Shown one piece after another: positions 5,485 to 42,419 of a stretch of DNA of 64,000 bases. Source of the stretch: the human T2T-CHM13v2.0 reference genome, Homo sapiens. A program made the translations under genes and the position numbers. The notes beneath the pieces are model-generated. The model saw nothing but the letters and a program-made list of their open reading frames with translations, was not told where the DNA came from and made no database searches. Positions within the stretch are counted from its first letter, which is position 1. Every line of letters starts with the position of its first letter. Where the stretch lies: assembly GCF_009914755.1 (NCBI RefSeq), contig NC_060932.1; one strand, 5' to 3'.

Positions 5485-5704
5485 GTGGAAGAACAATTGC
5501 CCTTTTTCGGCAGATGAAAATTATCGTCCTTTAGCCAAGACAAGGCAACAGAATATCAGCATGCAACGGCAAGAAAACCTTCGTTGGGTGTCAGAGCTCT
5601 CTTACGTAGAAGAGAAAGAACAATGGCAAGAACAAATCAATCAGCTAAAGAAACAGCTTGATTTTAGTGTCAGTATTTGTCAGACTTTGATGCAAGACCA
5701 GCAG
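5485..5704 (+). CDS. PCM1: PCM1 coding exon (~19), WKNNCPF...MQDQQ, 220 nt
   Basis: gttag acceptor; CAG|gtaaaa donor; overlaps ORF 5561..5950. Confidence 0.95.
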
Positions 5705-5813: not shown

Positions 5814-5959
5814 ACTCTATCTTGTCTGCTACAAACTCTTCTCACGGGTCCTTACAGTGTTATGCCCAGCAATGTTGCATCTCCTCAAGTACACTTCATA
5901 ATGCACCAGTTGAACCAGTGCTATACTCAGCTAACATGGCAACAGAATAATGTTCAGAG
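5814..5959 (+). CDS. PCM1: PCM1 coding exon (~20), TLSCLLQ...NNVQR, 146 nt
   Basis: tttctttcaatag acceptor after a 109-nt intron; AG|gtaatc donor. Confidence 0.94.
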
Positions 5960-40690: not shown

Positions 40691-41479
40691 TAGTCATAAA
40701 ATACAATTTTCTATTAATTATTTTTTCAGTCCCTGTTGTTAAATATTTGTGTTTATTCTGGTTTCTTTTCCACTATTACAAACACTTATTGAATGATTGA
40801 AGGTAATCTGTTTACTTTTGTTTCTCTAGAAACAATTTTTAGACATAAAATTTTTAGTTCAAAGGTCATAAACATTTTTAAAGCTTTTTAGACAAGCTGA
40901 TTGTCCTTCAGAGAAACTAACCAGTTTATATTCCCATCAACATTGATAGTATCAGACTGGTAAGCAGTACTATTAATTTCATTTAACAACATTGATCAGG
41001 GCAGATGGAGACATGTGCAACAAATGGAATAGGAAGACAGGACTTCTTTCTGAGATGGCATTCATTACATTCTAATTTAAAATGGAAGTTTTAACAATTA
41101 GAAGTGAAAAGTAATTGTTTTCTTTTCATCTAGATATGGTAAACTACAAAATACATTGTCACTGGGCTAGTTTCTTATATTGTACTCATACTTTTCTTTG
41201 TAAGACATGTACCACAGAGAATTGCTTCCATTGTGCTCATATTTCTTCCCTCAGCAGAAGTAATTGCTTTTTTTTGGAATGTTTTGAGAGAAGAGAGATC
41301 TTTGAGAAAGCACCTGTAGAAACTGCTTTCTCTGTATCTGACTTTACAGCTGAGAGGAAAAAGTCAGCTGATCGTGTCCAGATTATTCCATGTAAAAACA
41401 GAAACACGTAGCCTTGTTCTGGGCAATTGCAACAGTTCCTAAATGGCCTTACTATCCTTTTGCCGCTGCTTCTAACCTT

Positions 41480-41481
<2 letters not shown>

Positions 41482-41524
<43 letters not shown>

Positions 41525-42402
41525 TGGAGAGATCTGTTAAATTTTTTTTTTCTTTTTTTTTTTTTTTTTTTTTTATTATACTCTAAGTTATAGGGTACAT
41601 GTGCACATTGTGCAGGTTAGTTACATATGTATACATGTGCCATGCTGGTGCGCTGCACCCACTAATGTGTCATCTAGCATTAGGTATATCTCCCAATGCT
41701 ATCCCTCCCCCCTCCCCCGACCCCACCACAGTCCCCAGAGTGTGATATTCCCCTTCCTGTGTCCATGTGATCTCATTGTTCAATTCCCACCTATGAGTGA
41801 GAATATGCGGTGTTTGGTTTTTTGTTCTTGCGATAGTTTACTGAGAATGATGGTTTCCAATTTCATCCATGTCCCTACAAAGGATATGAACTCATCATTT
41901 TTTATGGCTGCATAGTATTCCATGGTGTATATGTGCCACATTTTCTTAATCCAGTCTATCATTGTTGGACATTTGGGTTGGTTCCAAGTCTTTGCTATTG
42001 TGAATAGTGCCGCAATAAACATACGTGTGCATGTGTCTTTATAGCAGCATGATTTATACTCATTTGGGTATATACCCAGTAATGGGATGGCTGGGTCAAA
42101 TGGTATTTCTAGTTCTAGATCCCTGAGGAATCGCCACACTGACTTCCACAATGGTTGAACTAGTTGACAGTCCCACCAACAGTGTAAAAGTGTTCCTATT
42201 TCTCCGCATCCTCTCCAGCACCTGTTGTTTCCTGACTTTTTAATGATTGCCATTCTAACTGGTGTGAGATGATATCTCATAGTGGTTTTGATTTGCATTT
42301 CTCTGATGGTCAGTGATGATGAGCATTTCTTCATGTGTTTTTTGGCTGCATAAATGTCTTCTTTTGAGAAGTGTCTGTTCATGTCCTTCGCCCACTTTTT
42401 GA
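41482..42402 (-). mobile_element. 5'-truncated L1HS (Ta subset) with 3' transduction
   Basis: Intact 200-aa ORF2 C-terminus (41780..42382); diagnostic ACA (41666-41668) and 3' G (41583); two poly-A tracts; TSD acctttc. Confidence 0.95.
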
Positions 42403-42419
42403 CCTTTCAACTCTCCTAC

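What the first reader, a model, noticed from the sequence alone, without database searches (positions are those of the whole stretch)
41475..42408. Very young L1HS-Ta insertion with a 3' transduction tag that should identify its source element
Seen, in L1 sense: ~830 nt of L1 3' end with an intact ORF2 tail, diagnostic GATGAC-ACA-TTAG and ACTTA-G, then A22-G-A10, the non-L1 18-mer TTTAACAGATCTCTCCAC, then a pure A42. TSD is acctttc (41475-41481, 42402-42408) at a TTTC/AA endonuclease site. Established: ACA/G defines the active human-specific Ta subset, and two tails separated by unique sequence mark a 3' transduction. A non-consensus base (CCCTATAACTTAG) is a second lineage marker. Inference: human-specific, probably polymorphic, and traceable to an active progenitor L1.
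Basis: partly seen in the sequence, partly recalled or inferred. Interest (0 to 1): 0.8.

Follow-up and report, generated by a model that had tools for sequence, protein, structure and literature searches.

The report
Short-tagged L1 insertion traced to source
A truncated human LINE-1 copy in a PCM1 intron carries an 18-base tag that traces it to one full-length LINE-1 on chromosome 16, which is a tidy but ordinary case of a well-known process.

Summary
On the minus strand, 41475-42408 holds a 5'-truncated L1HS-Ta 3' end of 827 nt. It is followed by A22-G-A10, an 18-nt non-L1 segment and A42, all flanked by a 7-bp target-site duplication.

The predicted source exists. The 18-mer has one other exact copy in the 3.1-Gb genome, directly after the A16-G-A15 tail of a full-length L1HS on contig 16. 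Its first 13 nt are that element's own target-site duplication and the next 5 nt are flank, so the direction is chr16 to chr8.

A published long-read callset lists both loci as L1 deletions relative to CHM13, of 927 bp and 6062 bp. Those lengths equal insertion plus duplication exactly, so both are polymorphic. It types the chr8 copy "solo", so the transduction was missed there.

- "Very young" fails. The copy has three private substitutions (3.6 per kb), the median of 14 unselected Ta copies.
- The non-consensus T is private to the daughter, not a lineage marker.
- The source allele here has a frameshifted ORF1.

This is a known mechanism with a probably unrecorded parent-offspring link. Interest is low.

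The parts
41475..41481 (.). Target-site duplication copy next to the terminal poly(A); acctttc on the plus strand
   Evidence: Searches show it identical to 42402-42408. The published 927-bp deletion allele equals insertion plus one copy of it.
41482..41523 (-). Terminal pure A42 tail, added to the read-through transcript
   Evidence: The regex count gives 42. The source locus has ACACCTG at this point instead.
41524..41541 (-). 18-nt 3' transduction, made of 13 nt of the source's 3' TSD plus 5 nt of contig-16 flank
   Evidence: Its only other exact genomic copy directly follows the tail of the full-length L1 on C16.
41542..41574 (-). Internal tail A22-G-A10, copied from the source element's genomic tail
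   Evidence: The source tail is A16-G-A15 and has the same single G interruption.
41575..41779 (-). L1 3' UTR with the Ta-diagnostic ACA (41668-41670) and one private substitution at 41590
41780..42400 (-). C-terminal 206 codons plus stop of ORF2, open, with two private missense substitutions at 42310 and 42166
   Evidence: Translation and differences.
42401..42401 (-). 5' truncation point of the L1. The T that ends the adjacent TSD (42402) matches the L1 base just before this point in the source, a one-base overlap.
   Evidence: The alignment shows the source reading ...CCCCAT before CAAAAAGTGGG.
42402..42408 (.). Target-site duplication copy at the L1 5' junction

Best explanation
A full-length L1HS-Ta on contig 16 (CHM13 chr16:89,702,698-89,708,746, plus strand) was transcribed past its own AATAAA. 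It is probably the catalogued reference element 16q23.3-1 in a CDH13 intron.

The transcript ran through the element's genomic A/G/A tail. It was cleaved and polyadenylated at a CA 18 nt into the flank.

That RNA was inserted by target-primed reverse transcription at a TTTC/AA site in a PCM1 intron, antisense to the gene. Reverse transcription stopped about 830 nt in, which left a dead-on-arrival 5'-truncated copy with a 7-bp TSD.

Shown:
- The anatomy of the insertion.
- The unique match of the 18-mer to the source flank.
- The direction of transfer.
- Presence/absence polymorphism at both loci, from a published table.

Inferred:
- The polyadenylation site and the signal used.
- Copying directly from chr16 rather than through a tagged intermediate.
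- ORF1 being intact in the source when the copy was made.

By divergence the insertion is an average-aged member of the Ta subfamily. No effect on PCM1 is indicated.
For: - Structure and TSD are confirmed.
- The 18-mer is exact only twice in 3.1 Gb. With an A6 prefix the count is also 2, against 0 for the reversed control.
- The 8 one-mismatch hits compare with 9 for the reversed control. None lies next to an A run or an L1.
- At C16 the 18-mer directly follows the A16-G-A15 tail of a 6049-nt L1. That L1 has a complete 5' end and an open ORF2 of 1275 aa.
- The C16 5' flank ends in AAAAATTTAACAGATCTC. So 13 nt of the tag are that element's TSD, which makes them chr16 target DNA. That fixes the direction of transfer.
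- Both tails carry a single G interruption.
- The L1 bodies differ at only 4 of 828 positions.
- The base after the tag in the source is A, which gives a CA cleavage site. A T-rich stretch follows about 20 nt downstream.
- PMC12350158 Supplementary Table 18 lists chr8-18269474-DEL (927 bp) and chr16-89702690-DEL (6062 bp) as L1. Those lengths equal insertion plus TSD at each locus.
Against: - No derived base in the L1 body is shared by source and daughter. Three differences are private to chr8 and one to chr16. The link therefore rests on the tag and the tail architecture alone.
- No canonical poly(A) signal lies 10-30 nt before the transduction end. AATAAA is 48 nt away. Only the variant hexamers AAGAAA (25-30 nt) and AAAAAG (28-33 nt) are in range.
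- The source allele in this genome has a frameshifted ORF1. It could not mobilise itself in cis as it stands.
- The source catalogue in PMC13009371 records 0 germline transductions for 16q23.3-1. Its tag method needs an exact 30-bp tag, so it could not see an 18-nt one.
Confidence: 0.92

Rival explanations
1. Relay. The chr8 copy was made from an intermediate full-length daughter that already carried the tail, tag and tail arrangement. That intermediate is absent from CHM13 or lost. The chr16 element would then be the grandparent.
For: The daughter has 3 private substitutions and shares none with the CHM13 chr16 allele. An intermediate could have supplied them. Multigenerational transductions are described in PMC13009371, though I saw only the section heading in its outline.
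Against: No third copy of the tag exists in this genome. An unselected sample of Ta copies shows the same divergence level, so ordinary post-insertion mutation is enough to explain the three changes.
Confidence: 0.07
2. Trans-mobilisation. The source already had its broken ORF1 when transcribed, and proteins from another L1 copied its read-through RNA.
For: In this assembly the source ORF1 is shifted out of frame and back by two one-base length differences relative to 11 of 11 other copies.
Against: L1 proteins strongly prefer their own RNA (cis preference, established knowledge that I recall). The element is otherwise identical to other copies across 1101 nt of ORF1. The frameshifts may be later, allele-specific, or homopolymer assembly errors.
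Confidence: 0.06
3. The 18-mer is untemplated filler, or a chance or post-insertional insertion into a long A tail, and is unrelated to chr16.
For: The segment is short and lacks a canonical poly(A) signal at the usual distance.
Against: It matches 18 of 18 bases at a unique genomic site placed exactly at the tail end of a full-length L1HS. Both tails have a G interruption, and 13 nt of the tag are duplicated as that element's TSD. By my arithmetic about 0.09 random 18-mer matches are expected anywhere in the genome.
Confidence: 0.01

Closest known systems
L1 3' transduction, as described by Goodier 2000, Pickeral 2000 and Szak 2003 (seen only as references), by Hoyt et al. for CHM13 (bioRxiv 10.1101/2021.07.12.451456, passages), and by PMC12350158 (passages)
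   Same: It has two A tails bracketing unique DNA, and that DNA maps directly 3' of a full-length source L1. The offspring is 5'-truncated and has a TSD and an endonuclease-type nick site.
   Different: At 18 nt the transduced piece is at the very short end. It consists mostly (13 of 18 nt) of the source's own TSD.
Short-transduction source L1s such as Xp22.2-1 (PMC13009371, sections 7 and 9 read)
   Same: That study found 248 of 349 transductions shorter than 100 bp. It also found that such events are routinely called "solo" by standard pipelines, as happened to this copy in PMC12350158 Table 18. Two Xp22.2-tagged daughters turned up among my comparison copies.
   Different: Xp22.2-1 has a canonical signal 9 bp downstream and very many offspring. 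The chr16 source has only variant hexamers inside its G-interrupted tail. It has one known offspring in this genome.
Catalogue entry 16q23.3-1 (GRCh38 chr16:83637252-83643296, plus strand, intron of ENSG00000140945; PMC13009371 Supplementary Data S1)
   Same: It shares the chromosome arm, strand, length (about 6 kb) and approximate distance from the q telomere with the CHM13 element. It is the only 16q23 entry in that table.
   Different: I infer identity from coordinates only, since no GRCh38 sequence was available. The catalogue records 0 germline transductions for it. It calls the element fixed in its samples, whereas PMC12350158 lists an empty allele.

Membership tests
L1HS Ta subfamily | ACA, not ACG, at the 3' UTR diagnostic triplet (positions 5929-5931 as numbered in PMC12350158 Methods) | tested here: met
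   GATGACACATTAG is present, with ACA at window 41670-41668. The source and the comparison copies have the same triplet.
L1HS Ta subfamily | G at the second 3' UTR diagnostic site near the end of the element (I recall this definition; it comes from no call) | tested here: met
   CTTAGAGTATAAT is present in the daughter, the source and the four comparison copies printed.
Ta-1 subset | T and G at positions 5535 and 5538, where Ta-0 has G and C (PMC12350158 Methods) | tested here: inconclusive
   Counting back from ACA lands 2 nt away from a T-N2-G pattern (AAATGAGTAT), which is present in the daughter and the source. That fits Ta-1, but the numbering offset could not be checked against the reference element.
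Endonuclease-dependent TPRT insertion | Flanking target-site duplication | tested here: met
   There is a 7-bp TSD. The published empty allele differs by exactly insertion plus 7 bp.
Endonuclease-dependent TPRT insertion | Nick site resembling TTTT/AA | tested here: met
   The site is TTTC/AA. By my hand count it scores 7, against a threshold of 6, under the scheme quoted in PMC13009371 Methods.
Endonuclease-dependent TPRT insertion | 3' poly(A) tail | tested here: met
   The terminal tail is a pure A42.
L1 3' transduction | Unique sequence between two A tails | tested here: met
   The arrangement is A22-G-A10, then 18 nt, then A42.
L1 3' transduction | The unique sequence maps directly 3' of a full-length L1 elsewhere and continues into flank there | tested here: met
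L1 3' transduction | A poly(A) signal 10-30 nt before the end of the transduced segment | tested here: inconclusive
   Canonical AATAAA lies 48 nt before the end. The variant hexamers AAGAAA (25-30 nt) and AAAAAG (28-33 nt) are in range. The list of variants is recalled, not taken from a call.
Retrotransposition-competent ("hot") source L1 | Open ORF1 and open ORF2 | tested here: not met
   ORF2 is open at 1275 aa. ORF1 is read out of frame for about 127 codons, with stops, in this assembly's allele. Other alleles were not testable.
Polymorphic human-specific insertion | An empty allele exists in humans | tested here: met
   This rests on the literature only. PMC12350158 Supplementary Table 18 has rows for both loci. 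No allele frequencies were visible.
Polymorphic human-specific insertion | Absent at the orthologous site in apes | not testable with these tools
   No ape genome is held.

The most novel reading that the evidence does not exclude
The single G in the source's genomic A tail creates weak variant poly(A) hexamers (AAGAAA, AAAAAG). These would place cleavage 25-33 nt downstream, just inside the flank.

This source would then habitually make very short transductions of about 18 nt. Current pipelines score such copies as "solo".

Its germline output would be under-counted, and possibly that of other L1s with interrupted tails as well. More tagged siblings would be waiting in pangenome data.
Probability: 0.2. 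Interest if true: 0.35.

Novelty: new member of a known kind. Interest (0 to 1): 0.2.

Why it matters
The finding adds one documented germline offspring to a chromosome-16 L1 whose catalogue entry records none. It is also a clean example of a transduction too short for standard callers. A 1,019-genome long-read resource typed this copy as "solo".

That supports the published point that short transductions bias estimates of which L1s are active. Beyond that it is an ordinary intronic, antisense, truncated L1 with no indicated effect on PCM1.

Tried and rejected
- Sibling insertions. The 8 one-mismatch tag hits are chance: the reversed control gives 9, and none lies beside an A run or an L1. The 600 nt of chr16 flank has no other copy in the genome.
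- Tag strings in the literature. They were absent from full texts. The held part of PMC12350158 Table 18 gave only an unrelated Alu TSD. That table holds noisy TSD and poly(A) strings only, so this is a weak test.
- PCM1 in print. The one relevant L1 paper (PMC3514663) concerns a tumour-specific insertion, not this one.
- Files I could not read:
  - Szak 2003.
  - The supplement of PMC9311842, which is too large.
  - Table 19 of PMC12350158, because the file is cut after Table 18.
  Any of these could already list the chr16 to chr8 link.
- Excess of private substitutions. I considered that three private substitutions in a polymorphic copy were too many and pointed to copying errors. I dropped the idea after the unselected sample showed the same level.
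- Tail length. A42 looked like evidence of youth, but it is only suggestive. The first uninterrupted A run reaches 42 or more in 3 of 29 young comparison copies.

Full report
**Observation**

In L1 sense, on the window minus strand, the insertion reads in this order:
- TSD GAAAGGT at 42408-42402.
- An 827-nt L1 3' end at 42401-41575.
- A22, G and A10 at 41574-41542.
- TTTAACAGATCTCTCCAC at 41541-41524.
- A pure A42 at 41523-41482.
- GAAAGGT again at 41481-41475.

The ORF2 C-terminal frame is open to its stop. The empty-site sequence puts the first-strand nick at TTTC/AA. The L1 base just before the truncation point in the source is T, the same as the last TSD base. That gives one base of overlap at the 5' junction.

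**Subfamily**

PMC12350158 (Methods passages) defines Ta by ACA at positions 5929-5931, and Ta-1 by T and G at 5535 and 5538.
- ACA is present.
- Counting back from ACA lands 2 nt away from a T-N2-G pattern in both daughter and source. Ta-1 is therefore likely, but it was not confirmed against the reference numbering.

**The tag identifies a source**

- A whole-genome pattern search finds the A6+18-mer twice, in the window and at C16:89708741-89708764 on the plus strand. The reversed control gives 0 hits.
- The bare 18-mer is also exact only twice. Its 8 one-mismatch hits match the reversed control's 9, and none sits next to an A run or an L1.
- At C16 the 18-mer follows the A16-G-A15 tail of an L1 that is 6049 nt long including the tail. 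This L1 begins with a complete 5' end.
- The C16 5' flank ends in AAAAATTTAACAGATCTC. The first 13 nt of the tag are therefore that element's own target-site duplication, meaning pre-existing chr16 DNA. The last 5 nt (TCCAC) are flank.
- This settles the direction as chr16 to chr8. It also rules out untemplated filler.
- Both tails have one G interruption.

**How the transcript ended**

- The source reads A after the tag, which gives a CA cleavage site. A T-rich stretch follows about 20 nt downstream.
- The element's AATAAA lies 48 nt before that point, outside the usual 10-30 nt window quoted in PMC13009371 (section 9).
- Only the variant hexamers AAGAAA and AAAAAG fall at 25-33 nt. Both are created by the G in the tail. 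The list of variants comes from my recall.
- The next canonical AATAAA is 327 nt into the flank. No copy of that flank exists elsewhere in the genome.
- The signal actually used is therefore an inference.

**Age and lineage markers**

- Daughter and source differ at 4 of 828 aligned L1 positions.
- The 29 best-scoring other L1HS copies are identical to each other over this stretch. They are a biased set, being top hits among the 40 scored of 3,892 candidates.
- Those copies polarise the four changes. Three are private to the chr8 copy, at window 42310, 42166 and 41590. One is private to the chr16 copy.
- The T in CCCTATAAC is thus not a shared lineage marker. Two of the private changes are missense in the dead ORF2 fragment.
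- I also took 14 Ta-type 3' ends at roughly even steps from the first 100 listed places, out of 434 genome matches to a Ta-specific 33-mer. All 14 lie on contigs 1-3.
- Their differences from the common young sequence run from 0 to 12.6 per kb, with a median of 3.6. The five copies that span all 828 nt show 2, 3, 3, 4 and 8 differences.
- The chr8 copy, at 3.6 per kb, is an average Ta copy and not a very young one.
- Its A42 tail is long but not exceptional. The first uninterrupted A run has a median of 19 in the 29 young copies and reaches 42 or more in 3 of them.

**State of the source**

- ORF2 is open at 1275 aa.
- ORF1 leaves its frame and returns about 127 codons later, with stops in between.
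- Against 11 of 11 other copies, the only differences in 10 of them are two one-base length differences in short A runs, 382 nt apart. The eleventh copy has one further substitution.
- In this assembly the source therefore lacks an intact ORF1. I cannot tell whether that is later decay, specific to this allele, or a homopolymer assembly error.
- Over 5805 comparable positions the source differs from three young full-length copies at 19 substitutions plus those two indels.

**What is in print**

- Supplementary Table 18 of PMC12350158 (1,019 long-read genomes, CHM13 coordinates) lists chr8-18269474-DEL, 927 bp, L1, "solo". It also lists chr16-89702690-DEL, 6062 bp, L1, "solo".
- Those lengths equal 920+7 and 6049+13, which is insertion plus TSD at each locus.
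- Both elements are therefore presence/absence polymorphisms, and the boundaries are independently confirmed.
- The "solo" label shows that the 18-nt transduction was not recognised.
- Table 19, the source catalogue, lies beyond the stored part of the file.
- PMC13009371 Supplementary Data S1 lists a reference element 16q23.3-1 at GRCh38 chr16:83637252-83643296, plus strand, in an intron of ENSG00000140945. I recall that gene ID as CDH13. A CDH13 paper holds the ID, which I saw in a search listing only.
- That entry records 0 nanopore and 0 tag-based transductions and one xTea somatic call.
- I take 16q23.3-1 to be the same element from its strand, size and position, but I could not verify this by sequence.
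- The same paper shows that 248 of 349 transductions are shorter than 100 bp and that these are usually missed or called solo.
- Hoyt et al. catalogued 183 high-confidence L1 3' transductions in CHM13, but their table was not readable here. I therefore cannot say that the link is unpublished.

**Verdict**

The central prediction, that the tag would lead to a source L1, is fulfilled within the same genome, and polymorphism is supported by a published table. The claims of extreme youth, of a second lineage marker and of a demonstrably active progenitor are not supported.

The mechanism is textbook L1 3' transduction. The only mildly new points are the specific parent-offspring link and the very short tag, which consists mostly of the source's TSD.

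Noticed in passing
L016 (G000 C23:11293487-11297314), L017 (C15:95420123-95423950), L031 (C6:84186252-84190079): The X-linked L1 in L016 is followed by TAACAATAAAATGAGATAAAATCTACT... after its tail. L017 and L031 carry the same roughly 25-28 nt followed by a long A run. They look like a source and two short-transduction daughters. They probably correspond to the known hot element Xp22.2-1, which has a canonical signal just downstream.
   Followed up: partly
L019 (C12:87727613-87731440) and L038 (C4:83277802-83281629): These two L1HS copies share more than 50 nt of identical sequence after their tails (TAAAACCCCCTAAGAATACTAAATAATTG...). They may be another source and daughter pair or a longer transduction. 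I did not resolve which is which.
   Followed up: no
L024, L039, L025 (output): Further young L1HS copies show unique sequence of 9-19 nt between two A runs. Including L017 and L031, at least 4 of the 29 comparison copies have this double-tail architecture, so it is common.
   Followed up: no
G000 C2:94009106-94027688 and C2:94297887-94309669: Two clusters of three exact matches each to the Ta-specific 33-mer lie here, all on the minus strand. Spacings within a cluster are about 6-12 kb. This suggests locally duplicated L1-containing units near the chr2 centromere.
   Followed up: no
L003 3017 and 3399 (G000 C16): The source L1's ORF1 is shifted out of frame and back by two one-base length differences in A runs. 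It is otherwise identical to 10 other copies over 1101 nt. This could be real allele decay or homopolymer assembly error.
   Followed up: partly
window 41482-41600, plus strand: On the PCM1 sense strand the insertion presents T42 and then T10-C-T22. These are long pyrimidine tracts, followed by ...ctctaag. This resembles a 3' splice-site context. The supplied annotation lists no exon here.
   Followed up: no
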